In this document: positions 9,758-24,498 of the stretch, one piece after another
Numbering within the stretch: the stretch's first letter is position 1
Layout: each line of letters starts with the position of its first letter
From: an uncultured Gammaproteobacteria bacterium
GTDB taxonomy: Bacteria; Pseudomonadota; Gammaproteobacteria; Steroidobacterales; Rariloculaceae
Length of the DNA: 55,068 nt
Reading direction: 5' to 3'
Assembly (NCBI GenBank): GCA_964384125.1
Contig: CAYLKA010000008.1
Location: 2,999-58,066, forward strand
Program-made: the position numbers and the translations under genes
The notes under the pieces: generated by a model
Databases searched by the model: none
What the model was told of the DNA's origin: nothing
The model's input: the letters and a program-made list of their open reading frames with translations, nothing else

Positions 9758-10138
9758 TCAGGCAGGATCGTAGTAGTGCATCTCTAGCAGGACGCATCCA
9801 CCGTCGGAGGCGAACGGACCGTGATAGGCGCCCGGCGGGCGGCAAGCGTAGGTGAAGGGCTGGAATGGGGTACCGCCTTCGCCGTTCTGGTCGTTGCCGA
9901 CCGTTAGATCACCTGAGACAAGGAAAACTTCTTCCCAGTACTCATGCACAAATGGTGCAGTGGTGTATACGCCGGGCGCAAACCTTAGGAGCCGCGTGCG
10001 GCTACCGGTCTTGGTAATCTCGTCAATTTCGCCGGACAAAACTTTCTGTTCTATCCCCTCCGGATAACCATCCAGCGTTTCCCAACCGACGTTCATATCA
10101 AGCTCGTGGAACTCGTCATGAGCCTTGTTAATTGCCAT
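9758..10138 (-). CDS. Cupin-domain protein (ChrR-like)
   Basis: Start ATG 10138 (GGAGG SD). HEYWEEVFLVSGDL and YACRPPGAYHGPF cupin motifs. Confidence 0.85.
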   Translation of the reverse strand: MAINKAHDEFHELDMNVGWETLDGYPEGIEQKVLSGEIDEITKTGSRTRLLRFAPGVYTTAPFVHEYWEEVFLVSGDLTVGNDQNGEGGTPFQPFTYACRPPGAYHGPFASDGGCVLLEMHYYDPA

Positions 10139-10183
10139 AGCGTTGAGACCTCCGAGTTCGGGCAACTCTCATTCGTCACCCGT

Positions 10184-11110
10184 TCAGGATTGCCAGAATT
10201 CCGAGAACTCGGTAGCAACAACCTGATCGTAACTGACGTCGGTCTCGAGTATACCGACACCGCAAGCGAAATCGTTCATACCGGCGACTGACCGCTCGGA
10301 GATAGCCACATCGTAATAGGGAAGATCGCGCCTTATAAGTTCCGCAATCAGTGCCGCTTCCTGGGGTGGGAACAGTGCGTCACCTACCTTAGTGGCAAGT
10401 GAAACATCGGCCTTGAGGACCTTTTGAGTCCTTACAATCGCGCGGATTACAGCGGCAACCGTCTCAGGAGAGCCCTCAATAAGGCGCTCGGTCGTGGCGA
10501 TAGAAGCCATCGTGTAATCGAAACATCCTTTCGGTCCGTCACCACGTCGGACATCGAGCACGACGGTCCCCGCACCGCCCCTGACCGCGACCTCGGTTCC
10601 CATGCCATTCGCCCAGAATCCATCGATCTTGCCAGCCTCGAGAGCCCGAGCAGCCGTCAAACCGAAGTTAGTCGTAGAACCCACCGCACCTGGAACCGGT
10701 GCGATATTGATCTGATCGCGCTCAAGGTCATAACCCGCCTCGACTAATAGGGCTTTCAAGCCCATGTCGACCCACGGTGCAGCACCAATATTGCGGCCCT
10801 TTACGATGTCGAGATCTCCGTGCACTGCATTGAGGTCGCTCCTCATGACCAGAAACCAGTACATCCCTCGCCCCTGGGCCGCGATGAGTCTGACACCCTC
10901 CCAATTAGGAAATGCCGAAAGAGCAGAGTGTGCGGAACCACCGACGAAATCGACCCCACCGGATCGCAGCTCTGAGTAACACTTGTCGACTGGAAAAACG
11001 AGCTCAAGCTCCATATCGAGCCCTTCCGCGGCGAAGAAACCGAGCTCGATGGCCGCCACTGCTGGAAAATAGGAATTAGAAATCAGATCTGGTACAGCAA
11101 GTTTCATCAA
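10184..11110 (-). CDS. NitT/TauT (NMT1/SsuA-like) ABC substrate-binding protein
   Basis: YFPAVAAIELGFFAAEGLDMEL, L.SGGVDF, L.G.NIG, ALEAGKIDG, PETVAAVIRAI pattern. No clear signal peptide. Confidence 0.82.
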   Translation of the reverse strand: MMKLAVPDLISNSYFPAVAAIELGFFAAEGLDMELELVFPVDKCYSELRSGGVDFVGGSAHSALSAFPNWEGVRLIAAQGRGMYWFLVMRSDLNAVHGDLDIVKGRNIGAAPWVDMGLKALLVEAGYDLERDQINIAPVPGAVGSTTNFGLTAARALEAGKIDGFWANGMGTEVAVRGGAGTVVLDVRRGDGPKGCFDYTMASIATTERLIEGSPETVAAVIRAIVRTQKVLKADVSLATKVGDALFPPQEAALIAELIRRDLPYYDVAISERSVAGMNDFACGVGILETDVSYDQVVATEFSEFWQS

Positions 11111-11127
11111 ACTCTCTGCTCACGTCC

Positions 11128-12816
11128 CTAGTCGTCTGTAACCGAAGGGTCATTTTCGAATACGACCGGCTCGTTCATTGCTACGTCACCACGACGTCCA
11201 GCGATTAGCTCGTCAGACAAATCAAAGTACTCGCTGCGAGTCGCCTTCTCCGCTTGTCTCTCGAGCTGCTGTGGCCACACGCCAAGGTTATAACCATGCC
11301 AGGGCGACTCCGGCTTGAGCGGGGGAAGTCCGAGACGATTCCAGATCTCACCAGCACGCTCCATGTATTCCCGTTTTGGCAAGGCAACCGGTGCGTAGTC
11401 AGTTTTTAGAACCGCGTTGATCAGAACGGATGCGCTCTCACCATCGTCAAGCGGCCCCCTGGGTCCGTGACCGGGATCCTTACGACCCAACACCTTCATA
11501 TCGTGTTGCGGCTGACAGCGGTAGGACATGGCCCAAAACAAGGCATCTGCGTTATGTGGATCGATATCCTCGTCGACCGCTACGACCCATTTTCCAGCAA
11601 ACCGGTGCAGTGTCGCCGCCCCATAGAGCGCTCGCCAAACCTCTGTCTCCGGCACATCGCGTTCGAACTGCACACCAATCACTGCATATAGATTCGTCAG
11701 CGGCTCATGCATCGCGACCTGCTTGACGCCGGCTATACCCATATTTGAACGCAAGTGATTGAGGTATACCGGCTCCATCGCCACCTTGCGAATGACGCTG
11801 GACTCGCTCGGAGCTACCTGACTAATGAAAGACGTTACGATCGGTCTGCGCCGGTGGGTGATAGCGGTAACATCCATGAACGCGTTGTACTCAGCTAAGT
11901 TGACGTAACCGTGTGATTCACCAAATGGAGCTTCCGGCTCGAGGAGTTCGGTATTAATAAGGCCTTCGATAACAAACTCGGCTTCGGCCGGGACCAAAAC
12001 ATCGACCGTCTTTGCTTTCACAACATTGATAGGCCCTCCGGCCAGACCACCGGCAACCGCAAGCTCGTCCAAGTGCCGTGGCATCTTCTGCACCGAAGCG
12101 TATGAGACGGCGGGTGGGCAACCAACGGCTACAGCACATGGCATGGGCTCGCCACGTTCCTTGTATTTCATCCAATGACCGTAAATCCCAGCACCCAACT
12201 CGACCGACGGATTCATACCGAGACGTCTGGGTGCCTTGATCTGACCACGGTAGTTACCCATATTCTGAAGCCCGGATTCTGGGTCCCGAGTGATGTAGTG
12301 ACCCGCCGACAGATACGGAGCGTTATCCCAGCCCGGTGTGGAAATCGGCACCGGCAAACGCTCGAGGGCATTACCGGGTGTATCCAGCTCAGCACCACTG
12401 ATGACCACATCATGGCAGGGTGCGACCTTTACAATGCGGGGATCGATAGGATTGGCAATCGCCTTGATCCAGCTCTCACCGATCCCCTCAAGCGGTGAAC
12501 CGAATCCAACGCGGTATACCTGTGGCGAACCTGCAAGCCCTGCCACGAGCACGGCGCTCTCGAAGTTGCGCCCCTTACTGTCGGTGGGTTTAACAAAGAG
12601 AAAAGCCTTGCGTTCAGATTCCGGGATGCCGCCTCGATACTGCCAGCGAACAAGCGGATGCATCTCCGTATCTTTGTTTATCGGCTCAGTTATCACATAG
12701 AGCAGGTCCTCGCGCGCCAGTGCGAGAACGTGCTCGTGTAAGTCCGGATAACTGCGTTCAGGCTGCCCGTCGGTGTCTGCATAAGGTTCGAGCGCAGGCG
12801 GAACTTGCGTCGTCAT
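11128..12816 (-). CDS. UbiD-family (prFMN-dependent) decarboxylase, copy 1
   Basis: GNYR, VPAEAEFVIEG, EPEAPFGESHGY (catalytic Glu pair), VAVDEDIDP..WAMSYR. Confidence 0.92.
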   Translation of the reverse strand: MTTQVPPALEPYADTDGQPERSYPDLHEHVLALAREDLLYVITEPINKDTEMHPLVRWQYRGGIPESERKAFLFVKPTDSKGRNFESAVLVAGLAGSPQVYRVGFGSPLEGIGESWIKAIANPIDPRIVKVAPCHDVVISGAELDTPGNALERLPVPISTPGWDNAPYLSAGHYITRDPESGLQNMGNYRGQIKAPRRLGMNPSVELGAGIYGHWMKYKERGEPMPCAVAVGCPPAVSYASVQKMPRHLDELAVAGGLAGGPINVVKAKTVDVLVPAEAEFVIEGLINTELLEPEAPFGESHGYVNLAEYNAFMDVTAITHRRRPIVTSFISQVAPSESSVIRKVAMEPVYLNHLRSNMGIAGVKQVAMHEPLTNLYAVIGVQFERDVPETEVWRALYGAATLHRFAGKWVVAVDEDIDPHNADALFWAMSYRCQPQHDMKVLGRKDPGHGPRGPLDDGESASVLINAVLKTDYAPVALPKREYMERAGEIWNRLGLPPLKPESPWHGYNLGVWPQQLERQAEKATRSEYFDLSDELIAGRRGDVAMNEPVVFENDPSVTDD

Positions 12817-14043
12817 CTAAGGCGTCTCCAAAGTAATCGAGTTGGCACGTCGCTGCATTGCAATCATGGAGGTTTCCAACAAAAACTCGCGCGCCCTTTC
12901 TGGATTGGCAGCGGTCTGCGCCAACTCTCTAAGATTTCGTCTGCGCGTCTCTGGGTCGCGCGCTTCCAACCGTTTCTTATTCGCGATCGTCTGCTGCTGG
13001 ACGAATTCGTGTGTGACCGTGCGCCGTTGTTTGTCGTATAGGGCGAGCTGGGATTTCGAGGTCTCCCCCAGAATGACATTCGCTAGGTTCTCTGCAAGGC
13101 AGGCAGCATCCTGAAACCCCCCATTTAGGCCCATTCCACCGATGGAGTTGTTCACGTGCGCGGCATCACCGGCAAGTAAAACGCGCCCTTTGACAAACGT
13201 TGCAGCTACGCGTTGATGGGTGACGTAAAGATTTCGATGGACGATCTCATAGGGCTCTGGTCGCGCGAAGAACTTCTGTAATCGAAATTGCACAGCCTCG
13301 TCGCTCAAGATCTGCTCATTACTTTCATCGCGAACCGTTGGGAAAACCGTGCGCCAAAGCCCTGGAGGCCCATCACCAGAGACCTTGAAACAGTTACACC
13401 ACTCCTCAGGGTCGGCAATGTACGTACGATAACAGAACCCTCTGTGAGCCTCGAAATCAAACGGCGTCGTCAAAACCAGAAAGCGCTCGGGGTAAGTAAA
13501 ACCCTCAAAGTCAATGCCCGCTTGCTTGCGGACGGTGCTCGTCCCGCCGTCCGCACCTATGAGATATGAACCCGAAAAGGTCTCTACACCTTGTGGGGTC
13601 ATCACCGAGACTGTTACGGAGTCCTCATCCTGCTCAAACGCTTCGACGGTGTGCGCAAACAGAACCTCCACATTAGGCAATTCGTTAAGGCGCGCAAGAA
13701 TGAGCTTCGCCGTCTTGAACTGCTCACACTGAATCACGAAGGGAAAATCCGTGTCCTCTCCAAGGAGCCTATGATCGAATTCGGCAATCTTTGAAGCTGA
13801 CGGTCGATCCCAGAATTGGAAAACATGCGCGACCAACCCAACCCGCGCCATGTCCTCCACCAAGTCATCGACATTCAGGATTTCGAGCGTTCCAGGATGC
13901 GTGGTCGCTGCCCGTGGATCTTCTTGCAAGCAGTCGTTTTCATCGAAGACGGTGACTTCGATACCACGCCGACCCAACAGCAGAGCCGCAAACAGTCCCA
14001 CAGGCCCACCGCCAGAGATCAGCACATGTTGACTGTGACCCAT
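12817..14043 (-). CDS. FAD-dependent monooxygenase (group A, MhpA/PheA-like aromatic hydroxylase)
   Basis: GGGPVG, LIGADGGTS.VR, LAGDAAH...GGMGLNGGFQDA fingerprints. Confidence 0.92.
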   Translation of the reverse strand: MGHSQHVLISGGGPVGLFAALLLGRRGIEVTVFDENDCLQEDPRAATTHPGTLEILNVDDLVEDMARVGLVAHVFQFWDRPSASKIAEFDHRLLGEDTDFPFVIQCEQFKTAKLILARLNELPNVEVLFAHTVEAFEQDEDSVTVSVMTPQGVETFSGSYLIGADGGTSTVRKQAGIDFEGFTYPERFLVLTTPFDFEAHRGFCYRTYIADPEEWCNCFKVSGDGPPGLWRTVFPTVRDESNEQILSDEAVQFRLQKFFARPEPYEIVHRNLYVTHQRVAATFVKGRVLLAGDAAHVNNSIGGMGLNGGFQDAACLAENLANVILGETSKSQLALYDKQRRTVTHEFVQQQTIANKKRLEARDPETRRRNLRELAQTAANPERAREFLLETSMIAMQRRANSITLETP

Positions 14044-14078: not shown

Positions 14079-14759
14079 TTAAGCGGAGTAAGGCAGACGC
14101 GCGACACTGTAACGATGAGAGATCCGCCGACCCAACACTGGGTCTTCAATCTCGAATTCGAAGGTGTCCGAAGGCCTAACGCCGCCTCGAGCAGCAAGCG
14201 TGCCACAAAACATCATGCACCCTTCCGGCAGCCCCGACGAACCCGTGTACATGCTAATGGTCTCGAGAGGGTCGAGCATCGCGAGAACAGAACCTTCCTG
14301 GTAAAGCACACGCTCACCCGCCTCCACTATGTATGAACGCAAGCGAAGCTCACCCCAGTGGGGCGCTACTTCCGCGTGTTCCCAAAAAATCGGAGCGATG
14401 GGCTTTTCGCACATCTGCTTCGACGCCGTGACATCGTAAGTCTCGGCTCCTCTATCGGTATGGTCAGAACCAACACCAACCCAGAGTTTCCCAGCAGCAG
14501 TGAGTAAAACGAACTCCACCTCACCGCTCGTCTCGCCGCTCGTCACCTCGATCTGTGTGCCGAGCGTGGCCCGGTTCACCGATACGTGATAAAAAATCGG
14601 CGTCGTACTGGGGCGCTTGACTCCAAGCGCTTCAAGCTCAGCGATATGCCGTTCCAGAGCCTCTGGATCGCGTCCGGTCCAGCCCGCTATAACAAGCTGA
14701 TGAAGTGCCTGCGAATCCGCCTGCACACTATCGTCACCGAGGCATAACGACAATTCCAT
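14079..14759 (-). CDS. DUF2848-family protein (FAH-superfamily-like)
   Basis: Start ATG 14759. IAGWTGRD..HIAEL, TSGEVE, GVGSDHTDR..E....SKQMCEKP, LYQEG, MFCGT, DPVLGRRISHRY. Confidence 0.85.
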   Translation of the reverse strand: MELSLCLGDDSVQADSQALHQLVIAGWTGRDPEALERHIAELEALGVKRPSTTPIFYHVSVNRATLGTQIEVTSGETSGEVEFVLLTAAGKLWVGVGSDHTDRGAETYDVTASKQMCEKPIAPIFWEHAEVAPHWGELRLRSYIVEAGERVLYQEGSVLAMLDPLETISMYTGSSGLPEGCMMFCGTLAARGGVRPSDTFEFEIEDPVLGRRISHRYSVARLPYSA

Positions 14760-14781
14760 GAGACCCCTACGCGTTCGCAAA

Positions 14782-15957
14782 TCAGCGCCGATCAACTCTG
14801 ACCCTATGGACACCGTCGGTCCGGCCCTGATATTTCCCCGTCCTCAGCCACTCCATAGACACGTCTTGCATGAACTTGTAGTGGAAACTCTCCCAGAACG
14901 GATAATGCGTTGCGCATTCCATGTTGATAAGCGCCTTGCTCGCGGTACCGGTCAGGTCTGCGTACAAGGGCTCTGCGGCCTCGTACAGGAAGTCCTCTTC
15001 TCCCACAAGAATGAGTGTCGGAGTCTGCACACGCGCCGCATATTCTCTATTCCATCCCCATTGGGTTGCAGTACTCACACGAAGGACACCATCCGGCGGC
15101 CCCCAAACCGAGCCGAGTGAATCAACACCCATGATGGTCTGCCAAACCACAGGCTCGACATCCGAATCGACCTGCCCCTCACAGGCGACAGCGCCATGCC
15201 AGCGCTCCCCCATATACATCTGCCGCGTCATCAGCGTCATTGGGGTCCCTACCTCTGGCACATCTTCGGGCGCGCTGGCAGGGCCGCTCGGTGAGTACAC
15301 CGGGGCCAGCAGAATCAATTTGTCTACCTTCTCCGGATGGCGGGCAGCGTAGCCCGCCGTGCGAGGCCCACCCCGCGACCAGCCCACTAGACTCACGCGG
15401 TCGATGCCCCGCAATTCCCTGATGTAATCAACCACCGTGTCAATCTCGTCCCAGTCCGACTGGCTGGTCGTCAATTTGTACCCGTAACTTGGCTCGCAAG
15501 GAGCCGACAATGGGTTCGGGCTCACCACCGACTGAGCCTCGACAGCAAAATTGCAGGGGTCATCCATTTCGGGCTGTGGCGAACGGCCAAACCCCGTGTG
15601 ATCCATAGCGAAAGCGTCGAAACCAGCTTCGGCGAATACGCTCATCCAACTGTAGTCCTCGAAGGGCAAATCGAATACGGGCAGGGAAGGCGCTAATGAA
15701 CCATGCACAAATAATACGGCCCGCCCAGGTGGCAGCGAGCCAGCTTCAAGCTCTTCCTGTAGACCTTCCGAGATTTTCTCTCTGACAAAAATGCCGACCT
15801 TCTTACTAGCATTGGCCGGGACTGTGGAAACATGCGGGACAAACACGTCAACTGTCGCCACCCTCTCCTGAGCGAGACTCGCTGTGTAGTTCAGAAGAAC
15901 TAGCGTGCCCATGACCGCCGTTGTTATACCTGTACTGCCTGGTATCAACCTTTTCAT
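14782..15957 (-). CDS. Secreted alpha/beta-fold hydrolase
   Basis: Signal peptide; LFVHG, DHTGFGRS, nucleophile elbow GWSRGG, GEED, ATH. Confidence 0.88.
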   Translation of the reverse strand: MKRLIPGSTGITTAVMGTLVLLNYTASLAQERVATVDVFVPHVSTVPANASKKVGIFVREKISEGLQEELEAGSLPPGRAVLFVHGSLAPSLPVFDLPFEDYSWMSVFAEAGFDAFAMDHTGFGRSPQPEMDDPCNFAVEAQSVVSPNPLSAPCEPSYGYKLTTSQSDWDEIDTVVDYIRELRGIDRVSLVGWSRGGPRTAGYAARHPEKVDKLILLAPVYSPSGPASAPEDVPEVGTPMTLMTRQMYMGERWHGAVACEGQVDSDVEPVVWQTIMGVDSLGSVWGPPDGVLRVSTATQWGWNREYAARVQTPTLILVGEEDFLYEAAEPLYADLTGTASKALINMECATHYPFWESFHYKFMQDVSMEWLRTGKYQGRTDGVHRVRVDRR

Positions 15958-17623: not shown

Positions 17624-17769
17624 AACCCCATCCTATCCGAACGGCTCGAACCCTTTGGAGCCCGACCGCCTCCCCGAGTAGCTTGAGACCTCAAGTTTAC
17701 ATCCCAGAGGGTTGCAGGGCCCCGATCACAACCAGCCTAGACTTAGTCTAAGTCTGAACGCCGCAAGCC

Positions 17770-17805
17770 TTGACGTGAGTCACGCGGGCATGAGTAACTC
17801 TCGCC
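17770..17805. promoter_or_regulatory. Candidate operator in the divergent promoter of the UbiD cluster
   Basis: TTGACG (-35-like) overlapped by palindromes GTGAGTCAC and GAGTAACTC, which also form a TGAGTnAC direct repeat with a 15-nt period. Confidence 0.4.
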
Positions 17806-17846
17806 CTCCTCTCCCTCATCAAATCGAATAGCGGGAAAAACAGACG

Positions 17847-18851
17847 ATGAAAGCAGTCATTCTCTCCCAGCACGGAAACTTGCAGGACCTCGAATACGTG
17901 AGCGACTTCCCGGACCCGACCATTCAGGACGGCCATGTCATCATCCGAGTGAAAGCGACATCGTTCAACTATCACGATGTTTTTACCGTTCACGGAATGC
18001 CGGGCATCAAGGTACCGATGCCTATGATCATAGGGCTCGATATGGCCGGCGAGATCATAGAGGTCGGGGCGGGCGTGAACGGCTGGAACGTGGGCGAGCG
18101 CGTACTCGTGAACCCAGTCAATCAGGGAAAAGGGCTCATGGGAGAAATGATGCATGGCGGTCTCGCAGAAAAGTGCCTCGTCGCCGAACATCAACTGATT
18201 CGCATGCCCTCCAAGGTATCGTTCGAGGATGCCGCCTCTTTGCCCGTGGCTTACGGCACCGCTCACCGGATGCTGATTACACACAACACGGTCAGGTCGG
18301 GCGACAAAGTCCTTGTCCTGGGCGCAAGCGGGGGCGTCGGCACCGGGTGTGTCATTCTCGCCAAGATGCTAGGCGCGGAGGTGATCGCGTGCACTTCGAG
18401 CGAGGAAAAAGCCGAACGCCTAAAGTCGCTTGGTTCGGATCACGTGATCAACCATCAGGAAGTAAACTTTTCCAAGTGGGTCATCGAGCACTTTGGCAAA
18501 CCGCAGCGGCGAACGCATGAGGGTGGGGTCGACGTCGTTATTAACTTTACCGGAGGGGATACCTGGGCACCGACACTGCGCTGCGTGAAGCGTGGTGGCA
18601 AGATACTCGTGTGCGGTGCAACCGCTGGCTACGACCCCAAAGAGGACCTACGCTACGTCTGGACTTTCGAATTGCAGATCAGGGGCTCGAACAGTTTTTA
18701 TGACGATGATTTACGGGCACTCCTCAGCCTTGTGAAAAACGGTAAAATTAAGCCCGTCATAGACGAGGTACTGCCGCTAGAACGCTCAGTCGAAGGCCTT
18801 CGGCGCATCGAAGACCGTGAGGTGTTCGGAAAAGTGATCGTCGCCCCCTAA
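17847..18851 (+). CDS. MDR-superfamily (quinone oxidoreductase-like) NAD(P)H-dependent oxidoreductase
   Basis: IIGLDMAGEI, GGLAE, LPVAYGTA, LGASGGVG, GKILVCGAT. Lacks the Zn-binding Cys cluster. Confidence 0.9.
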   Translation: MKAVILSQHGNLQDLEYVSDFPDPTIQDGHVIIRVKATSFNYHDVFTVHGMPGIKVPMPMIIGLDMAGEIIEVGAGVNGWNVGERVLVNPVNQGKGLMGEMMHGGLAEKCLVAEHQLIRMPSKVSFEDAASLPVAYGTAHRMLITHNTVRSGDKVLVLGASGGVGTGCVILAKMLGAEVIACTSSEEKAERLKSLGSDHVINHQEVNFSKWVIEHFGKPQRRTHEGGVDVVINFTGGDTWAPTLRCVKRGGKILVCGATAGYDPKEDLRYVWTFELQIRGSNSFYDDDLRALLSLVKNGKIKPVIDEVLPLERSVEGLRRIEDREVFGKVIVAP

Positions 18852-18872: not shown

Positions 18873-20402
18873 ATGACTGTTCACCAACCAGAGCCGCGTG
18901 GATATTCGGGTAATCTGGGATCACTTTTCGCAGAACATGCCGAAGAAGATCGAACCGCGCTTCTAGACCTACGAAATCCCCAGATCAGCCGGCCGGTAAC
19001 CTACCAAGAGCTCGACTCCACGTGTAACGCCGTCGCGCGCGGCCTAGCTCGCGAGGGACTGGGACCCGGCGATCGCGTTGGAATCCTTTCACTCAACAGA
19101 ACCGAATTTATCGCCACTCTACTCGGTGCCATGAGGGCCGGCATTATCCCGGTTCCAATCAACGTCAAATTCTCGGCTAACACGATCGCTTACATACTTG
19201 CCGACGCCAAAGCTCGAGTGGTTTTCGCGGAACCCGACCTCACTCCCTTGCTACCAACCGACATCCCCGTTGTGGAGTTCGACGGCGAGTTTGAACAGTT
19301 CCTTGACTCCGGACCGTTCGAACCCTTCGAGCCCAAGTCAGATTCCATCGCGATACAACCGTACACGTCGGGCTCGACTGGTCAGCCGAAAGGCGTCTTG
19401 CTAACCCACTATGGGCAAAACTGGAGCAGACGCATACTTGCCCACACGCGTAACACCACCGAAACCGATGTGATCCTGGTAGCCGCACCCCTGTACCACA
19501 AGAACGCATTGAACGCAGTCAAACAGGGCCTTACTGCGGGTGCGATGCTGCCATTGCTGCCACGGTTTTCGGTGGAACGCTACATCGACGCAATCGGACG
19601 TCATCGTTGCACGGTCATCTCCGGCGTGCCCACGATGATTTCGATGGTACTCGCATCCAAGGAGCTACTTACCGACACGGAAACCGGTTCGGTGCGCACG
19701 GTCATGATGGGCTCGGCGCCGTCTTCACCCCAACTACTTGCCGAGATCCGAAATCATTTCCCCAATGCTGAAGCGCTTGTCGTTTACGGCGTCACCGAGG
19801 GTGGTCCCGTGCCATTGGGGTCACACCCGCTGGGTAAGCCGCGGCCGCCCGGCTCATTGGGCGTGCCGTATGCTGGAACCGAGGCTAAGCTCGTCGGCGG
19901 CAGCTCAGCGAATGAAGGCGAGTTGGTGGTCAAGAATCCCGGCATCTTGGCTGCCTACCACAATCTCCCGGAGGAAACCGCCAAACGACTCCGAGGCGGG
20001 TGGTACTACACCGGGGATATCTGTCGGCGCGATGACGACGGTTTTTACTACTTCATCGGTCGTACCGATGACATGTTCGTGTGCGGCGGCGAGAATGTTT
20101 ACCCTATTGAGGTGGAGACGCTATTGGAGCGTCATCCGATGGTGCACCAATCCCTGGTTATGCCATTCGAGCACGACTTAAAGGGATATGTGCCCTATGC
20201 TTTCGTGGTCCCGCGCTCGGGCGCCCAGATCACAGAAGACGAAGCCAGACAATTTGCACTGGAGAACGGACCAGCGTACATGCATCCGAGACGTGTTTTC
20301 TTTCTCGAGCGGTTGCCGCTGACCGGCACCAACAAGGTGGATCGAGACCTGTTGAGAACTTGGGTTACCGAAAAGCGCCTCGATACGGCGGTCGGGGACT
20401 AA
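18873..20402 (+). CDS. Acyl/aryl-CoA ligase (class I adenylate-forming enzyme)
   Basis: YTSGSTGQPKG, YGVTEG, WYYTGD, GRTDDMFVCGGENVYP.E.E, LPLTGTNKVDR. Confidence 0.93.
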   Translation: MTVHQPEPRGYSGNLGSLFAEHAEEDRTALLDLRNPQISRPVTYQELDSTCNAVARGLAREGLGPGDRVGILSLNRTEFIATLLGAMRAGIIPVPINVKFSANTIAYILADAKARVVFAEPDLTPLLPTDIPVVEFDGEFEQFLDSGPFEPFEPKSDSIAIQPYTSGSTGQPKGVLLTHYGQNWSRRILAHTRNTTETDVILVAAPLYHKNALNAVKQGLTAGAMLPLLPRFSVERYIDAIGRHRCTVISGVPTMISMVLASKELLTDTETGSVRTVMMGSAPSSPQLLAEIRNHFPNAEALVVYGVTEGGPVPLGSHPLGKPRPPGSLGVPYAGTEAKLVGGSSANEGELVVKNPGILAAYHNLPEETAKRLRGGWYYTGDICRRDDDGFYYFIGRTDDMFVCGGENVYPIEVETLLERHPMVHQSLVMPFEHDLKGYVPYAFVVPRSGAQITEDEARQFALENGPAYMHPRRVFFLERLPLTGTNKVDRDLLRTWVTEKRLDTAVGD

Positions 20403-20443: not shown

Positions 20444-20866
20444 ATGACTAAACAGGTAATTGGCGTGGAATCCCTGCAAGAGCTCCTTTCACGTGGGCCC
20501 TTCAACCAGTGGCTGAATTTCACCGTGCTAAGCGCTGATGAAGAAGGCATTGAAGTCCAGGTGACCTGGCGGGAGGAATGGGTCGTCAACCCGGACCGCC
20601 GCTACACGCATGGCGGCATCCTTGCCGCGATCGTAGACACCGCTGCTGATTACGCAATCGCGGCCAACCTCGGGCGCCCCGTACCTACGATAAGTGTTAG
20701 GGTCGACTACCACAAAGCGGCCATGCCAGGGGACCTGATCGCGAAAGCGCGAGTCGTCCGGATGGGAAGCCAGTACTCCACGGCGGAAGCTTACGTCTAT
20801 GACACGGATGACAACCTGGTGGCCAGTGGACGCGGAACCTATTTCACAGCGCCGCCGCGATCATGA
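20444..20866 (+). CDS. PaaI-family hotdog thioesterase
   Basis: NP...THGGILAAIVDTA motif; 140 aa. Confidence 0.9.
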   Translation: MTKQVIGVESLQELLSRGPFNQWLNFTVLSADEEGIEVQVTWREEWVVNPDRRYTHGGILAAIVDTAADYAIAANLGRPVPTISVRVDYHKAAMPGDLIAKARVVRMGSQYSTAEAYVYDTDDNLVASGRGTYFTAPPRS

Positions 20867-20908
20867 GCTTAATCAAACCAGACGTGTGAAACAGAGTTGC
20901 AATCCGGT

Positions 20909-22534
20909 ATGAATAATTCAGATACGAAACACGAGAACTTCCGCGAATTCTTGGACCGACTGCGCTCTGAGCACGAGCTCGTAGACATCAAGCAAGCAGT
21001 CGACATCCGACACATCGCTACCCTCGTAGATCAAGCGGACACAGCCCTCCTCTTTCATAACGTGAACGGATACGAGATTCCAGTCGTCTCCGGCATCCTC
21101 CGCTCACGCAACCGCGCCACTCTGTCCATGGGTTGCAGCGATTACTCCGAAATTGAGCACCGACTGGCACAAGGTATAGAGAATCCGATCTCACCACGAC
21201 AGGTCGAGACTTCCAGCAACAAACAAGTCATCGAGATCGGGGACGACGTGGATCTCTATCGCCTGCCGATTCCCATGTCATCCATCTATGACGGTGGACC
21301 TATGATCACCGCTGGGGTCGTGATCGCAAGGGATCCGGAATACGGTTTCAACTCCGGGATGTATCGCTTTATGGTCAAGGAGCGGAACCTCACCGGTATC
21401 GACATCGTCACGCCCAACAACATGCGGCTGTTCGCACAGCGCGCCCATGAAGCGGGCAAGCCCTGCCCGATCTCGATCTCGATCGGTACGCACCCGTTCG
21501 AGATCATGGGCTCCGGTTTCCGATCACCACTCGGAGTCGACGAGATGGCCATCGCGGGCGGCATCCGGGGTGCGCCGGTGGAACTTGCGCAGTGCGAGAC
21601 CCTGGATCTACCGTGTATCGCCGACGCAGAGATCGTGCTTGAGGCCGAGATACTTCCCACCGGTTGGGTGCATCCCGAGGGCCGTTTCGGCGAGTTCACG
21701 CGCCTCATGGGTGGGCTCCACTGGAACCCGTTGGTGAAAGTAAAGGCCATCACGATGCGCAAGAACGCTGTCTACTATGCGTTGCACATGCCGTGGGAGA
21801 ACACCTGGCTGGCAGCACCCACTCGTTACACGGCGATTCGTAGAGCATTGAAGAGTGCCGGCATCGACGTCAAAGACATCAATGTGACGCTTGGTGGCTG
21901 CGGGTTCTGGCACGCTATCGTGTCTATCAGGAAACAAGCCGGCGAAGGCAAAAACGCCCTCCTCGCAGCATTGACCGCTCAGGACATAAAGCACGTCGTG
22001 GTCGTCGATGACGACATCGATGTTAACGACGCAACGAATGTCGAGTGGGCCATCGCCACCCGCGTACAAGGAGACAGAGACGTGATCGTCGTGCCCGGCG
22101 CGCGGGCAAAACCTCTAGATCCAAGTCTTCCCGTCACACCTCCCGGCGTTGTACCGACAGGAGCAAAAGTGGGGATAGATGCCACTATCGGCGAAGGAAT
22201 TCCTCGCGAGCGTTTTGAACGCATCGCGTACGCGTATGCCGACCGGGCCAAGATCGGTGAATATCTCAGCGGCAAGACCGATAACCCGTTAAAGCAACCA
22301 AGACACGACGACACGCTCACGGCCAAACTGGCGCAAGAAATCCTAAAACTGATCGAGGACGAGCCCAGGTATTACCAGGAGATCGCAGAGCATTTATCAA
22401 AATATGAGTTCCAAGTAGTGGCGCGCGCAATGGGCCAACTTCACGCCGAAGAAAAGCTCTGGCAGGACGAACGTGGCCGCGCCTGTGTGCGCGACTCCGA
22501 TCACGCGGCAAAAGCACCGGTAAAGTCCCACTAG
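20909..22534 (+). CDS. UbiD-family (prFMN-dependent) decarboxylase, copy 2, with a C-terminal extension
   Basis: FREFLDRL..E, DLYRLPIP...DGGPMIT, NSGMYR, AEIVLE, EGRFGEF, VVVDDDID..VEWAIATR, LDPS, KVGIDAT; about 90 extra C-terminal residues. Confidence 0.92.
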   Translation: MNNSDTKHENFREFLDRLRSEHELVDIKQAVDIRHIATLVDQADTALLFHNVNGYEIPVVSGILRSRNRATLSMGCSDYSEIEHRLAQGIENPISPRQVETSSNKQVIEIGDDVDLYRLPIPMSSIYDGGPMITAGVVIARDPEYGFNSGMYRFMVKERNLTGIDIVTPNNMRLFAQRAHEAGKPCPISISIGTHPFEIMGSGFRSPLGVDEMAIAGGIRGAPVELAQCETLDLPCIADAEIVLEAEILPTGWVHPEGRFGEFTRLMGGLHWNPLVKVKAITMRKNAVYYALHMPWENTWLAAPTRYTAIRRALKSAGIDVKDINVTLGGCGFWHAIVSIRKQAGEGKNALLAALTAQDIKHVVVVDDDIDVNDATNVEWAIATRVQGDRDVIVVPGARAKPLDPSLPVTPPGVVPTGAKVGIDATIGEGIPRERFERIAYAYADRAKIGEYLSGKTDNPLKQPRHDDTLTAKLAQEILKLIEDEPRYYQEIAEHLSKYEFQVVARAMGQLHAEEKLWQDERGRACVRDSDHAAKAPVKSH

Positions 22535-22568
22535 CATCGGAGCACTGCGTCTCCGACGCACTCACGAT

Positions 22569-23501
22569 ATGCCCACCTCGATCGCCGCCGCACAGGTCCC
22601 CGCTCCCGGCGAGCTAAACGTGGACCACGTGGCACACTTCGTACCGAAAATGGACAACGCGCGTCTCGAACTCGAGCGACTCGGCTTCAAGGTGACGCCT
22701 TTTTCATCCCAATCGCACCGTACCCAACCCGATCATCCACTGGAGCCTGCGGGCGCCGGAAACTGTTGCGTCATGCTTGAGCGTGGCTATCTCGAGTTCC
22801 TAACGCCAACAGGCGACACGCCGATCGCCGCTCAGCTTCGCGCCGGTATACAACGATACGTGGGCATGCACCTGATCGCCTTCGGTAGCGCTTCGCCCAA
22901 GGAGGACCATGCGCGCTTAGCCCAAGCAGATTTCTCCCCACTTGAGCCTCTTGCGCTACAGCGCTCGATCGACACAGAGTCTAGCGAGGAAACCGCTCGT
23001 TTCACGGTCGTGCGCGTGCCGCCGGGGACGATGGCCGAAGGCCGCATCCAGTTCTGCCAACATCTGACACCGCAATGGCTATGGCAAGATCGCTGGCTCG
23101 AGCACCCCAACCATGCGGTCGCATTGAAGGGAGTCATCGTGTGCGTAGCTGATCCCCGGGAGGCGGCAGAGCGTTTCGGTCGCTTTACCGGATTGGCCCC
23201 GATAACAAGCGGCAATTGGCACTGCGTCTTAACCAGTCGAGGTTATTTGCTTTTCGCCGACGCTACGAACCTAACGCGGCGATTCTCCGTCACCCCCCCC
23301 TCGCTGCCATGGCTTGCCGGTTATGTTCTCGAGAGCCGAGACCTCGAAGCGACGGCCAACCATCTCCAAATCTCGGGAGTTCAGCCCCGGACGCTGGACC
23401 ATGGGCGAGTACTGGTGGAGCTACAACCAGAACTGGGAGGGATCGCGATCTTTGAGGCCGCGAATTCCGAGATGCTAGACTTCGGTGGATATGTCGATTA
23501 A
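22569..23501 (+). CDS. VOC/glyoxalase-like family protein
   Basis: VDHVAHFV..LERLGF, N..V.L..GYLEFL, EHPN.A..L. Confidence 0.85.
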   Translation: MPTSIAAAQVPAPGELNVDHVAHFVPKMDNARLELERLGFKVTPFSSQSHRTQPDHPLEPAGAGNCCVMLERGYLEFLTPTGDTPIAAQLRAGIQRYVGMHLIAFGSASPKEDHARLAQADFSPLEPLALQRSIDTESSEETARFTVVRVPPGTMAEGRIQFCQHLTPQWLWQDRWLEHPNHAVALKGVIVCVADPREAAERFGRFTGLAPITSGNWHCVLTSRGYLLFADATNLTRRFSVTPPSLPWLAGYVLESRDLEATANHLQISGVQPRTLDHGRVLVELQPELGGIAIFEAANSEMLDFGGYVD

Positions 23502-24498
23502 ATCAAGAAGCCTTTTTATCGCCTGGATAGGCGCGGGGATTATCTTCGCAGCTCCCATTCACGCCGTGCACGCCCAACTTGGGCAGGTGACCATTGGCAC
23601 TAATCCGGCGGGCACTCATTCCTATGTGGTGGCCGGAGCGGTGGCTCGACTGTTGCAGAACGAGACCGGCATTCGATCGATCATCCGACCTTTCTCTGGA
23701 TCATCGGTCTACATGCCTTTGTTGCACAGAGGCGAGATCACACTGGGCATGAACACGAATATCGACTCGTATCTCGTCTACAACGGCCGCGAACCCTACA
23801 ACGTGGCCATGTCCAATGTGCGCCTTCTAACCCGAGCGTTCCCGCTTTATATGATGTACATGGTGCGCGGCGATTCGGACCTTCACCGCATCGAGGATCT
23901 ACGAGGCCGAAGAGTAGTTGTCAGCATTCGTGCCAACCGCGCACTGGAGTTTTTGTTTAGGGCCATTCTCGCTACGGGCGGATTGAGCGGGACTGACTTC
24001 GATGAGATTACCGTGGGCGGCTTGGCAGACGGCGCAAGACTGTTGACTGAAGGCCGGGTGGACGCGGTCGCCATCGGCGTGGACACCGCTCTCACCCTGC
24101 AGGCACATGCCACCATCGACGGCGGCGTTCGCTACCTCACCATGGGTCAGGATGAATCCCGGCTCTCCGAGCTGATGCCGGGCTCCAAGGTGTCCCCTGC
24201 GCCGCTGGGACCCGTCACCGAAAGTATCGGCGGAGTCCCTCGGGTCTCGGAGATAAGCCACTACGTCAATACGGGCGTTCATCTAGCGGAGCAAGACGCC
24301 TACTTGCTTACCAAGACTATCCACGAGAATTGGCAGATGCTTCGTGACAATTTCGCTATGCTGGCCAACATGCCACCCGAAGGGCTAGCCCCCGCAGATA
24401 ACCCAATCCCCTACCACGAAGGTGCGATCAGATATTTCAGAGAGGTGGGCGTGTGGACCGAAGAGCATCAAAATAATCAGGCAGGACTCCTGGAGTAA
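23491..24498 (+). CDS. TAXI-family TRAP transporter solute-binding subunit
   Basis: Signal peptide; TIGTNPAGT, GSS, DLRGRRV, L.EGRVDA, IPYHEGAIRYFREVG. Confidence 0.88.
   Translation: MSIKSRSLFIAWIGAGIIFAAPIHAVHAQLGQVTIGTNPAGTHSYVVAGAVARLLQNETGIRSIIRPFSGSSVYMPLLHRGEITLGMNTNIDSYLVYNGREPYNVAMSNVRLLTRAFPLYMMYMVRGDSDLHRIEDLRGRRVVVSIRANRALEFLFRAILATGGLSGTDFDEITVGGLADGARLLTEGRVDAVAIGVDTALTLQAHATIDGGVRYLTMGQDESRLSELMPGSKVSPAPLGPVTESIGGVPRVSEISHYVNTGVHLAEQDAYLLTKTIHENWQMLRDNFAMLANMPPEGLAPADNPIPYHEGAIRYFREVGVWTEEHQNNQAGLLE

What the first reader, a model, noticed from the sequence alone, without database searches (positions are those of the whole stretch)
9758..24498. Divergent dual-UbiD, CoA-linked catabolic cluster of unknown substrate
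Seen: left arm (minus) is D-aminoacylase, alpha/beta hydrolase, DUF2848, FAD monooxygenase, UbiD-1, NitT-type SBP, cupin. Right arm (plus) is MDR reductase, CoA ligase, PaaI thioesterase, UbiD-2, VOC, TAXI SBP. Genes in each arm are tightly spaced (monooxygenase and UbiD-1 abut with no gap). Both UbiDs keep the Arg and Glu-x4-Glu catalytic set yet are very divergent from each other. Established: UbiD plus CoA activation occurs in phthaloyl-CoA decarboxylation, HmfF acts upstream of furoyl-CoA ligase, and paired UbiD subunits occur in phenylphosphate carboxylase. This gene set matches none of those pathways as I know them. Inference: an undescribed route for an aromatic or heteroaromatic (di)carboxylate using two (de)carboxylations or a heteromeric UbiD, hydroxylation, cupin/VOC ring chemistry and an FAH-like final step.
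Basis: partly seen in the sequence, partly recalled or inferred. Interest (0 to 1): 0.78.

Follow-up and report, generated by a model that had tools for sequence, protein, structure and literature searches.

The report
Two separate UbiD decarboxylase modules
Two widespread but uncharacterised gene modules, each built around a flavin-dependent (UbiD) decarboxylase, lie back to back in this marine bacterium; elsewhere they almost never sit together, so they are most likely two separate acid-degrading routes and not one dual-decarboxylase pathway.

Summary
The gene content is as described, with corrections. The left-arm "NitT-type SBP" has no signal peptide here or in 20 of 21 intact orthologues with a well-called start. 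The aminoacylase-like and alpha/beta hydrolases are exported and are never found with UbiD-1 elsewhere (0 of 80 loci).

Within 10 kb, 0 of 80 UbiD-1 loci carry a right-arm orthologue and 0 of 80 UbiD-2 loci carry a left-arm gene. Syntenic relatives of this organism have other genes to the left of the right arm.

- **Module A:** cupin, cytoplasmic NMT1-like protein, UbiD-1, PnpA/HspB-like monooxygenase, FAH-fold DUF2848. An amidase is inserted in 34 of 80 loci.
- **Module B:** Zn-less MDR, 4CL-like CoA ligase, PaaI, HmfF-branch UbiD-2, VOC. UbiX sits beside UbiD-2 in 47 of 80 loci.

UbiD-2 orthologues occur in 21 of 55 UbiD-1 genomes, mostly UbiD-rich ones, on other contigs in 9 of 10 checked. 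Substrates remain unknown. The scan had already noted module B on other DNA (e1-2127256). The finding is of moderate interest: two large unassigned UbiD subfamilies with defined partner sets.

The parts
9758..10165 (-). Module A: small monocupin (Cupin_7). Conserved H-E...E and PxGxxH stretches suggest a metal site.
   Evidence: Pfam. Orthologue at 62-76% identity in 35 of 80 UbiD-1 loci and 19 of 40 full-flank loci. Conservation.
10184..11110 (-). Module A: cytoplasmic NMT1/THI5-like PBP-fold protein with no signal peptide and no ABC partner. Its role is unknown.
   Evidence: Pfam. N-termini. Found in 26 of 80 loci. Nearest solved sequence is 3qsl, E 3.7e-8. Atlas.
11128..12816 (-). Module A: UbiD-1, a prFMN-type decarboxylase with a conserved C-terminal extension of about 120 residues (DNA 11131-11487).
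   Evidence: Pfam. Nearest solved relative is HmfF 6h6x, E 1e-45. At least 578 related stretches in species genomes. Invariant R190 and E295/E300.
12817..14043 (-). Module A: class A FAD monooxygenase of the PnpA/HspB type. Its stop codon abuts the UbiD-1 start.
   Evidence: Pfam. PDB 6ain PnpA 6e-63 and 7da9 HspB 5e-45. Found in 27 of 80 loci. Junction read.
14079..14813 (-). Module A: DUF2848 with an FAH-superfamily fold. The true start is probably the internal Met near 14759.
   Evidence: Pfam. Model pLDDT 88. Foldseek to Cg1458, FAHD1 and fumarylpyruvate hydrolases. Found in 23 of 80 loci.
14782..15957 (-). Local addition, not part of the conserved module: exported alpha/beta hydrolase.
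   Evidence: Pfam. Signal-like N-terminus. Found in 0 of 80 UbiD-1 loci.
15998..17623 (-). Local addition: lipoprotein-type Amidohydro_3 (D-aminoacylase-like) hydrolase.
   Evidence: Pfam and NCBIfam. N-terminus. Found in 0 of 80 loci. Best outside homologue is 48% identical, in 300 sampled genomes of the class.
17624..17846 (.). 223-bp divergent intergenic region between the two arms.
   Evidence: No promoter-like site above chance.
17847..18851 (+). Module B: MDR-family reductase. It has GLD where Zn-ADHs have GHE, so it is probably an ene/enoyl-thioester reductase.
   Evidence: Pfam. NCBIfam hits to PIG3, Ccr and acryloyl-CoA reductase models, all below cut-off. PDB 2eih and Ccr. N-terminal sequence. 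Found in 13 of 15 full-flank UbiD-2 loci.
18873..20402 (+). Module B: AMP-forming CoA ligase, 4CL/feruloyl-CoA-synthetase-like.
   Evidence: Pfam. PDB 8wev/8weu 6e-63 and 5bsm 2e-61. Found in 13 of 15 full-flank loci.
20444..20866 (+). Module B: PaaI-type hotdog thioesterase.
   Evidence: Pfam. TIGR00369 above cut-off. Found in 15 of 15 full-flank loci and 53 of 80 overall.
20897..22534 (+). Module B: UbiD-2 of the HmfF branch, with Asn where HmfF has His297. It carries a C-terminal winged-helix-like domain (DNA about 22301-22489).
   Evidence: Pfam. PDB 6h6v 1e-80. At least 556 related metagenome stretches. Tail model pLDDT above 90 over about 65 residues, and its Foldseek hits are almost all winged-helix domains.
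22569..23501 (+). Module B: 310-aa Glyoxalase_3 (VOC) protein.
   Evidence: Pfam. No solved sequence relative. Found in 8 of 15 full-flank loci and 19 of 80 overall. Also next to module B in G401 and G404 at 34-35% identity.
23485..24498 (+). Local addition: TAXI-type TRAP solute-binding protein with a signal peptide and no membrane partner on this contig.
   Evidence: Found in 2 of 80 UbiD-2 loci, syntenic relatives only. The genome has 18 DctM matches, none on contig C8.
24504..26462 (+). Local additions: Tat-signal SGL lactonase-like protein (24504-25586) and exported DUF4159 (25680-26462).
   Evidence: Pfam. N-termini. Shared only with L112 and L114.

Best explanation
The region is a juxtaposition of two independent prFMN-decarboxylase (UbiD) catabolic modules plus lineage-specific exported proteins. 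It is not one dual-UbiD pathway.

**Module A** (9758-14813, minus strand, all cytoplasmic). Inferred mechanism:
1. UbiD-1 removes CO2 from a hydroxylated aromatic or N-heteroaromatic carboxylate. In 34 of 80 related loci an amidase gene sits directly upstream, so the substrate there may be the corresponding amide.
2. The PnpA/HspB-like flavin monooxygenase hydroxylates the product para to an existing hydroxyl, giving a hydroquinone or dihydroxypyridine-type compound.
3. The metal-cupin and the FAH-fold DUF2848 open the ring and hydrolyse the product.
4. The signal-less NMT1-like protein is a conserved cytoplasmic companion of unknown role.

**Module B** (17847-23501, plus strand). Inferred mechanism:
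1. UbiD-2, of the HmfF branch, decarboxylates an imported dicarboxylate to a mono-acid.
2. The 4CL-like ligase makes the CoA thioester.
3. The Zn-less MDR reduces a C=C bond of that thioester.
4. The PaaI thioesterase releases or proofreads the acyl-CoA, and the VOC protein acts on the product.

prFMN comes from the single ubiX-like gene elsewhere in the genome.

**What is shown:** gene content, separate conservation of the two modules, folds and nearest relatives. **What is inferred:** all substrates and the order of the reactions.
For: **Separate conservation**
- UbiD-1 loci (n=80; threshold of 45% identity or more): cupin 35, monooxygenase 27, NMT1-like 26, DUF2848 23, amidase 34. Every right-arm orthologue scores 0.
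- UbiD-2 loci (n=80): PaaI 53, UbiX 47, ligase 38, MDR 27, VOC 19. Every left-arm gene scores 0.
- Loci with 6 kb or more on both sides. Module A, of 40: cupin 19, monooxygenase 18, DUF2848 14, NMT1-like 13. Module B, of 15: PaaI 15, MDR 13, ligase 13, VOC 8.

**Module B survives rearrangement**
- G401 and G404 have the order UbiD2-ligase-PaaI-MDR with VOC nearby, at 49-57% identity (VOC 34-35%).
- The window has the order MDR-ligase-PaaI-UbiD2-VOC.

**Syntenic relatives**
- L112 and L114 share module B, TAXI, SGL and DUF4159 with the window (L114 also the sulfite-oxidase-like gene). L115 ends after UbiD-2. All three lack every left-arm gene.
- Left of the MDR gene, L114 and L115 have M20-like and cytochrome c genes.

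**Chemistry leads**
- Monooxygenase: nearest solved relatives are PnpA and HspB.
- DUF2848: FAH fold.
- 14 of 80 module A loci carry an HpaB-type phenol hydroxylase.
- 13 of 80 module A loci carry a Mo-hydroxylase large-subunit match.
- The 50%-identical UbiD-1 paralogue on contig C19 sits between TTT transporter genes and a Mo-hydroxylase, followed by another NMT1-like gene without a signal-like N-terminus.
- Ligase: nearest to feruloyl-CoA synthetase and 4CL.
- MDR: nearest models are Ccr and acryloyl-CoA reductase types.

**Cofactor supply**
- One UbiX-like gene at C4:7682-8194.
Against: - The two arms share one 223-bp divergent intergenic region, and neither arm has a regulator gene in the window. 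Module B in Burkholderiales-type loci has a GntR gene.
- Genome-level co-occurrence is far above a random sample. 21 of 55 UbiD-1 genomes have a UbiD-2 orthologue at 56-77% identity. In the order sample, 1 of 250 other genomes has one, and the 3 of 250 with a UbiD-1-like gene do not overlap with it.
- One genome (G673) has UbiD-1 and UbiD-2 about 17 kb apart on the same contig, with 13.6 kb between the cupin of module A and UbiD-2.
- The loci reach only 10 kb each side, and many are cut short.
- No substrate is shown for any enzyme. The cupin is small for a ring-cleaving dioxygenase.
- Module A partners are present in only a third to a half of full-flank loci, so the module is loose.
Confidence: 0.62

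Rival explanations
1. One reading: both arms form one pathway for an aromatic or heteroaromatic dicarboxylate. UbiD-2 and UbiD-1 remove the two carboxyl groups in turn, with CoA chemistry in between.
For: - Adjacency with a shared divergent intergenic region.
- Genome-level co-occurrence in 21 of 55 UbiD-1 genomes, against 1 of 250 in the order sample.
- G673 has UbiD-1 and UbiD-2 about 17 kb apart on one contig.
Against: - 0 of 160 loci link the arms within 10 kb.
- Three syntenic relatives have module B without any left-arm gene, and two of them show other genes left of it.
- 9 of 10 genomes with both UbiDs hold them on different contigs, some longer than 200 kb.
- Genomes with UbiD-2 have more UbiD candidates (mean 23.8, n=18) than those without (13.3, n=32), as expected for unspecific co-occurrence in UbiD-rich genomes.
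- Chance adjacency of two of the 7 UbiD genes is about 11%.
Confidence: 0.12
2. UbiD-1 and UbiD-2 are subunits of one heteromeric carboxylase or decarboxylase, like the alpha and beta subunits of phenylphosphate carboxylase.
For: Only the adjacency of two divergent UbiD genes. Both match the phenylphosphate carboxylase subunit models weakly, at 90-122 bits against cut-offs of 469-565.
Against: - The genes lie on opposite strands in different operons.
- Orthologues are never neighbours in 160 loci.
- Each has its own complete catalytic R/E-x4-E set.
- UbiD-1 genomes lack UbiD-2 in 34 of 55 cases.
Confidence: 0.03
3. Module B is a true Hmf pathway: UbiD-2 is a furan-2,5-dicarboxylate decarboxylase, and the ligase and thioesterase stand in for HmfD and HmfE.
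For: - HmfF is the nearest solved relative (275 bits).
- JGI names many orthologues '2,5-furandicarboxylate decarboxylase 1'.
- UbiX (the HmfG equivalent) sits beside UbiD-2 in 47 of 80 loci.
- A ligase and a thioesterase are present.
Against: - HmfF His297, reported as key to furan specificity (PMC7976604, passage read), aligns with Asn in UbiD-2.
- No Mo-hydroxylase large subunit (the HmfA equivalent) lies within 10 kb in 0 of 80 UbiD-2 loci. The query was a distant IorB-like protein, so sensitivity is limited.
- An MDR reductase and a VOC protein have no place in the described hmf route (PMC8091172, passages read).
Confidence: 0.08
4. UbiD-2 acts on a CoA thioester, like phthaloyl-CoA or isophthaloyl-CoA decarboxylase. 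The ligase acts first, then UbiD-2, then the MDR reduces the product.
For: - The ligase, PaaI and UbiD-2 are tightly linked (PaaI in 15 of 15 full-flank loci).
- The linkage survives gene-order changes.
- A thioesterase fits as a safeguard against CoA trapping.
Against: Phthaloyl-CoA decarboxylase is a distant relative (72.5 bits, against 275 for HmfF). No CoA-binding feature was tested.
Confidence: 0.15

Closest known systems
HmfF/HmfG furan-2,5-dicarboxylate decarboxylase (PDB 6h6v, 6h6x) and the hmf pathway
   Same: - HmfF is the nearest solved relative of both UbiDs (UbiD-2 E 1e-80, UbiD-1 E 1e-45).
- Both keep the catalytic Arg and E-x4-E.
- UbiX is adjacent in many UbiD-2 loci.
- A CoA ligase follows in the same module.
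   Different: - Asn (UbiD-2) or Ser (UbiD-1) stands at the His297 position.
- Both carry C-terminal extensions of about 90-120 residues that the 448-residue HmfF chain lacks.
- There is no furoyl-CoA dehydrogenase.
- The partners (MDR, PaaI, VOC; or monooxygenase, cupin, FAH-like, PBP-like protein) are not hmf genes.
Phthaloyl-CoA and isophthaloyl-CoA decarboxylase systems (PDB 8oz5, 8pmk)
   Same: A UbiD enzyme combined with CoA activation of an aromatic acid.
   Different: - The sequence relation is weak (72 and 61 bits).
- Module B has an AMP-forming ligase, an ene-reductase-like MDR and a thioesterase.
- The same genome has a separate phthaloyl-CoA-like cluster according to note e1-2140268, which I did not test.
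PnpA (p-nitrophenol 4-monooxygenase) and HspB (6-hydroxy-3-succinoylpyridine 3-monooxygenase) routes to hydroquinone and 2,5-dihydroxypyridine
   Same: The module A monooxygenase is closest to these two enzymes. An FAH-fold hydrolase fits the lower part of such routes.
   Different: - The described routes, as I recall them, contain no UbiD, no PBP-fold protein and no small cupin.
- The known ring-cleavage enzymes of those routes are absent here.
Lumazine degradation cluster I of Cupriavidus sp. LA-1 (xanthine-8-carboxylate decarboxylase XCDC, a UbiD; PMC12391406)
   Same: - A UbiD of no known clade decarboxylates an N-heterocyclic acid made by a Mo-hydroxylase and a hydrolase-type enzyme (abstract, sections 7 and 8, and passages read).
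- Mo-hydroxylase genes lie next to UbiD-1-type genes in 13 of 80 loci and on contig C19.
   Different: - The LA-1 isomerase is of the Amidohydrolase_2 family, not an amidase-signature or Amidohydro_3 enzyme.
- No monooxygenase, cupin or DUF2848 is described there.
- I could not compare sequences: none was at hand, and the supplements are closed.
Phenylphosphate carboxylase alpha/beta (paired UbiD subunits)
   Same: Two divergent UbiD-family genes lie close together.
   Different: - The genes are on opposite strands.
- They are never neighbours elsewhere.
- Scores lie far below the subunit model cut-offs.

Membership tests
UbiD family (prFMN-dependent decarboxylases) | UbiD catalytic domain plus C-terminal domain | tested here: met
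   PF01977 and PF20696 match both proteins (E 5e-51 and 6e-53); UbiD-2 also matches PF20695. UbiD-2 passes TIGR00148 (299.7 bits against a cut-off of 244.85). UbiD-1 does not (195 bits).
UbiD family (prFMN-dependent decarboxylases) | Catalytic Arg and Glu-x4-Glu. The residue roles are recalled from Fdc1 work, not taken from a call. | tested here: met
   UbiD-1 has NMGNYR and EAPFGE; UbiD-2 has NSGMYR and EGRFGE. They align with the HmfF motifs and are invariant in 24 of 24 UbiD-1 sequences.
UbiD family (prFMN-dependent decarboxylases) | A UbiX-type flavin prenyltransferase available | tested here: met
   There is none in the window. One UbiX-like match lies at G000:C4:7682-8194; a second Flavoprotein match in a 423-aa frame is probably CoaBC, which is inference. 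UbiX is adjacent to UbiD-2 in 47 of 80 related loci.
HmfF-type furan-2,5-dicarboxylate decarboxylase (for UbiD-2) | His297, reported as key for furan-type substrates (PMC7976604) | tested here: not met
   His297 aligns with Asn of the PWENTW stretch in UbiD-2 (paper passage read). My residue count along the chain is off by one from the paper's numbering.
HmfF-type furan-2,5-dicarboxylate decarboxylase (for UbiD-2) | Association with furoyl-CoA dehydrogenase genes hmfABC | tested here: not met
   tblastn with the window's Mo-hydroxylase large subunit found 0 of 80 UbiD-2 loci. One partial small-subunit match lies at the edge of L115. The query is distant, so sensitivity is limited.
Phthaloyl-CoA decarboxylase type | Close sequence relation to Pcd | tested here: not met
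   72.5 bits (UbiD-2) and 61.6 bits (UbiD-1), against 275 and 159 bits for HmfF.
Heteromeric UbiD pair (phenylphosphate carboxylase type) | The two UbiD paralogues are conserved as neighbours | tested here: not met
   0 of 80 plus 0 of 80 loci at 45% identity or more. They lie on different contigs in 9 of 10 genomes holding both.
Periplasmic NitT/TauT-type ABC substrate-binding protein (left-arm NMT1-like protein) | Signal peptide, with a permease and an ATPase next to it | tested here: not met
   It has no signal peptide in the window, nor in 20 of the 21 orthologues with a 300-318 aa frame. The window has no BPD_transp or ABC_tran gene. The fold family itself is met (PF09084).
FAH superfamily (DUF2848) | FAH fold | tested here: met
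   AlphaFold model with pLDDT 88.1. Foldseek gave 98 matches at E 0.001 or better; the top ones are Cg1458, FAHD1, fumarylpyruvate hydrolases and KdaD, with probability 1.0 and TM about 0.6. There is no match at sequence level.
FAH superfamily (DUF2848) | Metal-binding acidic residues in place | tested here: inconclusive
   E98, E100, D117 and D120 are invariant in 18 of 18 sequences. They were not mapped onto the metal site of a solved FAH.
Class A flavoprotein monooxygenase, PnpA/HspB group | FAD_binding_3 domain and closest relation to para-hydroxylating members | tested here: met
   PF01494 at 8e-59. PnpA 6ain at 6e-63 and HspB 7da9 at 5e-45 are the two best solved relatives.
Zn-dependent alcohol dehydrogenase (for the MDR protein) | Catalytic Zn ligand His in the GHE motif (motif recalled, not from a call) | tested here: not met
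   The sequence reads GLDMAGE at that place. The nearest models are quinone-oxidoreductase and enoyl-CoA-reductase types. The motif was placed by eye.

The most novel reading that the evidence does not exclude
The UbiD-1 clade may work as a new kind of UbiD system that needs a cytoplasmic PBP-fold (NMT1/THI5-like) partner, either to bind or present the substrate or as an enzyme, for breaking down hydroxylated N-heteroaromatic acids.

The pairing recurs twice in this genome: in module A, and on contig C19 with a Mo-hydroxylase. It also recurs in 26 of 80 related loci.

A second reading is not excluded: the conserved winged-helix tail of UbiD-2 could let this decarboxylase bind DNA or a partner and so couple catalysis to regulation. 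The window version of module B has no GntR gene.
Probability: 0.12. Interest if true: 0.75.

Novelty: new variant of a known kind. Interest (0 to 1): 0.45.

Why it matters
Only a handful of UbiD enzymes have been characterised in detail (abstract of PMC8988006, seen in the listing). Here two very large subfamilies are given defined, conserved partner sets:
- UbiD-1: at least 578 related stretches in species genomes.
- UbiD-2: at least 556 related stretches in metagenome contigs.

Some soil alphaproteobacterial genomes hold 9 to 22 UbiD genes.

The partner sets turn "unknown decarboxylase" into two testable pathway hypotheses and give short candidate lists for substrate screening. The work also guards against over-reading adjacency: in UbiD-rich genomes two UbiD modules can lie together without forming one pathway.

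Tried and rejected
**Complex prediction of UbiD-1 with the NMT1-like protein** (alignments A2 and A3). The result was no verdict (score 0.00). This is evidence neither for nor against binding, and I did not repeat it.

**Literature searches**
- 'DUF2848': 0 papers.
- 'UbiD, prFMN, CoA ligase, thioesterase': 1 paper, on triacsin biosynthesis, judged unrelated from its title and abstract start.
- 'UbiD, amidase, monooxygenase, catabolism, gene cluster': 2 unrelated papers.
- 'UbiD, sequence similarity network, decarboxylase, uncharacterized' (at least 3 of the 4 terms): 117 papers, 20 listed. This led to the lumazine paper. Its partner enzyme is of the Amidohydrolase_2 family, so it is not the same system.

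**Other checks that led nowhere**
- Sequence search of solved structures for DUF2848 and for the VOC protein found nothing useful.
- The Atlas look-up of the NMT1-like protein gave only generic 'ABC substrate-binding protein' names.
- The promoter and terminator scan found nothing above shuffles.
- My first greedy ORF clustering of module A loci was spoiled by antisense shadow frames in high-GC DNA. I replaced it with tblastn counts.
- The search for the amidohydrolase in 300 other genomes of the class found only distant homologues of 48% identity or less, and I did not pursue it.

**Not done**
Bit scores against solved structures stand in for it.

Full report
**1. What is there**

The window is part of contig C8 of a 2.84-Mb, 186-contig assembly that is 92.5% complete.

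The monooxygenase stop codon is followed at once by the UbiD-1 start. The arms are separated by 223 bp.

The two UbiDs share 31% identity over 239 residues. Both keep the NxGxYR arginine and the E-x4-E pair. In UbiD-1 these positions are invariant in 24 of 24 sequences.

The flanks hold unrelated genes. To the left lie ChaN-like, MBL-fold and DUF6152 genes. To the right lie SGL, DUF4159, a sulfite-oxidase-like gene, an aldehyde dehydrogenase and an Ior-type Mo-hydroxylase, followed by seryl-tRNA synthetase, FtsK, ClpA-like and DnaE2-LexA genes.

**2. Corrections to the observation**

- The left-arm NMT1/THI5-like protein begins directly with its first strand and has no signal peptide. The same holds for 20 of the 21 orthologues whose frame is 300-318 aa; the remaining one has a 12-residue basic extension. 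No permease or ATPase gene is nearby. It is therefore a cytoplasmic PBP-fold protein and not a periplasmic binding protein.
- The alpha/beta hydrolase has a signal-like N-terminus and the Amidohydro_3 protein a lipoprotein-type one. TAXI, SGL and DUF4159 are also exported.
- DUF2848 has no solved relative by sequence. A model built on 18 orthologues (pLDDT 88.1) matches FAH-superfamily structures with Foldseek probability 1.0: Cg1458, FAHD1 and fumarylpyruvate hydrolases. 'FAH-like' therefore holds as a fold.

**3. Do the arms belong together?**

*UbiD-1 loci.* UbiD-1 has at least 578 related stretches in a collection with one genome per species. The best 80 (61-81% identity) came with up to 10 kb of flank on each side. 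tblastn with all cluster proteins gave these counts out of 80:

| Gene | Loci of 80 |
|---|---|
| cupin | 35 |
| monooxygenase | 27 |
| NMT1-like | 26 |
| DUF2848 | 23 |
| alpha/beta hydrolase | 0 |
| amidohydrolase | 0 |
| PaaI | 0 |
| TAXI | 0 |
| MDR | 1, at 27% identity |
| ligase | 3, at 26-27% identity |
| VOC | 1, at 30% identity |

UbiD-2 appeared only as cross-matches or other paralogues at 33% identity or less. With a threshold of 45% identity, every right-arm gene scores 0 of 80. An amidase-signature gene lies directly upstream of UbiD-1 in 34 of 80 loci. It is absent from the window.

*UbiD-2 loci.* UbiD-2 has at least 556 related stretches in metagenome contigs, and the best 80 are 74-87% identical. 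The counts out of 80 were PaaI 53, ligase 38, MDR 27 and VOC 19, and UbiX directly upstream in 47. Every left-arm gene scores 0 of 80.

*Full-flank loci.* Among loci with 6 kb or more on both sides:
- Module A, of 40: cupin 19, monooxygenase 18, DUF2848 14, NMT1-like 13.
- Module B, of 15: PaaI 15, MDR 13, ligase 13, VOC 8.

*Syntenic relatives.* L112 and L114 share module B, TAXI, SGL and DUF4159 with the window, and L114 also the sulfite-oxidase-like gene. L115 ends after UbiD-2. All three lack every left-arm gene. In L114 and L115 the genes left of the MDR gene are an M20-like gene, two cytochrome c genes and an NHL-repeat gene.

**4. Genome-level co-occurrence, which counts against my reading**

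- Of 5 UbiD-1 genomes, 3 hold a UbiD-2 orthologue at 56-71% identity.
- Of 50 more, 18 do, at 71-77% identity. The total is 21 of 55.
- In an even sample of the order of Rhodoplanes roseus, 1 of 250 other genomes has a UbiD-2 orthologue, 3 of 250 have a UbiD-1-like gene at 54-58% identity, and the two sets do not overlap.
- In the window's own class, no other genome among 400 has an orthologue of either. The best are 38% for UbiD-2 and 50% for UbiD-1.

So the two modules share a set of genomes. These are genomes with many UbiD genes: 9 to 22 matches in four of the first five. The 18 genomes with UbiD-2 have a mean of 23.8 first-look UbiD candidates, against 13.3 for the 32 without. They are also kin of one another.

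In 10 genomes holding both, the two genes lie on different contigs in 9. Some of these contigs are long: one UbiD-2 gene sits beyond position 771 kb of its contig. In the tenth genome, G673, UbiD-1 and UbiD-2 are about 17 kb apart on one contig. The gap between the cupin of module A and UbiD-2 is 13.6 kb and holds none of the queried cluster genes.

I read this as co-residence in UbiD-rich generalists, not as one pathway. A tree-aware test is still missing.

**5. Module B**

The ligase-PaaI-MDR-UbiD-2 link survives rearrangement. G401 and G404 have the order UbiD2-ligase-PaaI-MDR, with VOC nearby, at 49-57% identity (VOC 34-35%). Rhodoplanes roseus has MDR and UbiD-2 placed divergently.

In L142, a Burkholderiales-type locus, the order is GntR, MDR, ligase, PaaI, ABC permease, UbiX, UbiD-2, ABC ATPase, NMT1-type binding protein, D-2-hydroxyacid dehydrogenase, VOC, TauD. 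Across the 80 loci a 2-hydroxyacid dehydrogenase follows UbiD-2 in 29, and a TctC-type binding protein occurs in 20. Uptake systems therefore vary (ABC, TTT, TAXI), which fits an anionic acid substrate. The scan had already described this operon on other DNA (e1-2127256).

Nearest solved relatives:
- UbiD-2: HmfF (275 bits), then AroY (191) and AnInD (182). Phthaloyl-CoA decarboxylase is far off at 72 bits.
- Ligase: a feruloyl-CoA synthetase and 4-coumarate ligases.
- MDR: it has Leu where Zn-ADHs have the catalytic His (the motif is recalled), and is nearest to a Thermus ADH-like structure and to crotonyl-CoA reductases. Its NCBIfam hits are quinone-oxidoreductase, Ccr and acryloyl-CoA reductase models, all below cut-off.

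HmfF His297, reported as key for furan-type substrates (PMC7976604, passage read), aligns with Asn in UbiD-2. No Mo-hydroxylase large subunit lies near any of the 80 UbiD-2 loci. The hmf route as summarised in PMC8091172 (passages read) needs hmfABC. Module B is therefore not an hmf cluster.

Inference: a dicarboxylate is decarboxylated, the mono-acid is activated with CoA, a C=C bond of the thioester is reduced, and the thioesterase releases or proofreads the product. The alternative order, with the ligase first and UbiD-2 acting on the thioester, is not excluded.

**6. Module A**

All five conserved proteins lack export signals.

- The monooxygenase is closest to PnpA (E 6e-63) and HspB (E 5e-45). 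From my own knowledge, both add a hydroxyl para to an existing one.
- In 14 of 80 loci an HpaB-type phenol hydroxylase is nearby.
- A Mo-hydroxylase large-subunit match lies within 10 kb in 13 of 80 loci.
- The 50%-identical UbiD-1 paralogue on contig C19 sits between a TTT transporter and a Mo-hydroxylase. That is followed by another NMT1-like gene whose N-terminus is also not signal-like.
- The cupin keeps H-E...E and PxGxxH stretches.

Inference: decarboxylation of a hydroxylated aromatic or N-heteroaromatic acid, then para-hydroxylation, ring opening and FAH-type hydrolysis. Where the amidase is present, the route may start one step earlier, at the amide. My own odds are about 40% for an N-heteroaromatic acid, 35% for a phenolic acid, and the rest for something else.

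The Cupriavidus lumazine route pairs a Mo-hydroxylase with a novel UbiD, but through an Amidohydrolase_2 isomerase, so it is an analogy and not a match. I read the abstract, sections 7 and 8, and passages of PMC12391406. I could not compare its sequences, and its supplements are closed.

**7. Extras**

- The last 95 residues of UbiD-2 are conserved: 20 columns are invariant in 40 sequences. They fold with pLDDT above 90 over about 65 residues into three helices and a hairpin.
- Almost all of the listed Foldseek matches are winged-helix domains (Rpa2 WH, IclR, Z-alpha, PadR, MarR-type). The best has E 2.6e-3 and TM 0.63/0.73. That is weak in E-value but consistent in kind.
- UbiD-1 has its own conserved tail of about 120 residues, shared with the C19 paralogue.

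**8. Verdict**

The one-pathway and heteromer readings are not supported. The claim that the gene sets match no described pathway stands for each module separately.

Adjacency of two of the 7 UbiD genes within 8.1 kb is expected by chance in about 11% of random placements.

I class this as a new variant of a known kind, UbiD-centred acid catabolism, of moderate interest.

Noticed in passing
window 22301-22489 (+), C-terminus of UbiD-2: UbiD-2 and its orthologues carry a conserved C-terminal domain that folds as a winged helix. The model has pLDDT above 90 over about 65 residues. Almost all listed Foldseek matches are winged-helix domains, and the best E-value is 2.6e-3. Pfam does not detect it.
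   Followed up: partly
window 11131-11487 (-), C-terminus of UbiD-1; also G000:C19:7237-8928: UbiD-1 has a tail of about 120 residues beyond the UbiD_C domain, with many positions invariant in 24 sequences (P505, W506, H507, G508, Y509 and others). It is shared with a 50%-identical paralogue on contig C19. Its role is unknown.
   Followed up: partly
L187 (G000:C19:1-19000): This is a second long-tailed UbiD module in the same genome. Its order is TctA/B and TctC, UbiD-1 paralogue, Mo-hydroxylase large subunit (792 aa), then an NMT1-like gene without a signal-like N-terminus. A 663-aa ThDP enzyme and a DctP gene follow.
   Followed up: partly
window 23485-24498 (+): The TAXI binding protein has no TRAP membrane gene on its 58-kb contig, although the genome has 18 DctM matches. 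A 53%-identical TAXI paralogue on C50 lies next to a fused TRAP permease, which may be shared.
   Followed up: partly
genomes G401, G403, G404, G405 (behind L013, L053, L010, L041): These soil alphaproteobacterial genomes show large UbiD expansions: 22, 11, 13 and 9 UbiD-family matches at E 1e-30 or better. The window's own 2.84-Mb genome has 7.
   Followed up: partly
window 29010-33365: An aldehyde dehydrogenase and an Ior-type Mo-hydroxylase pair (767 aa and 157 aa) lie between the sulfite-oxidase-like gene and the 3-keto-disaccharide-hydrolase and SerRS genes. In the syntenic relative L114 these three genes are missing from that gap.
   Followed up: no
window 6120-7211 (-) and G000 contigs C2, C20, C31, C80: The DUF6152 protein has at least 11 paralogues in this small genome, seven of them on contig C20. 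DUF4159 has 6 further paralogues.
   Followed up: no
window 44121-50294 (-): LexA, two frames without any Pfam match (250 and 498 aa) and a DnaE2-like polymerase (1032 aa) lie in a row. From memory, this looks like an imuA-imuB-dnaE2 mutagenesis cassette.
   Followed up: no
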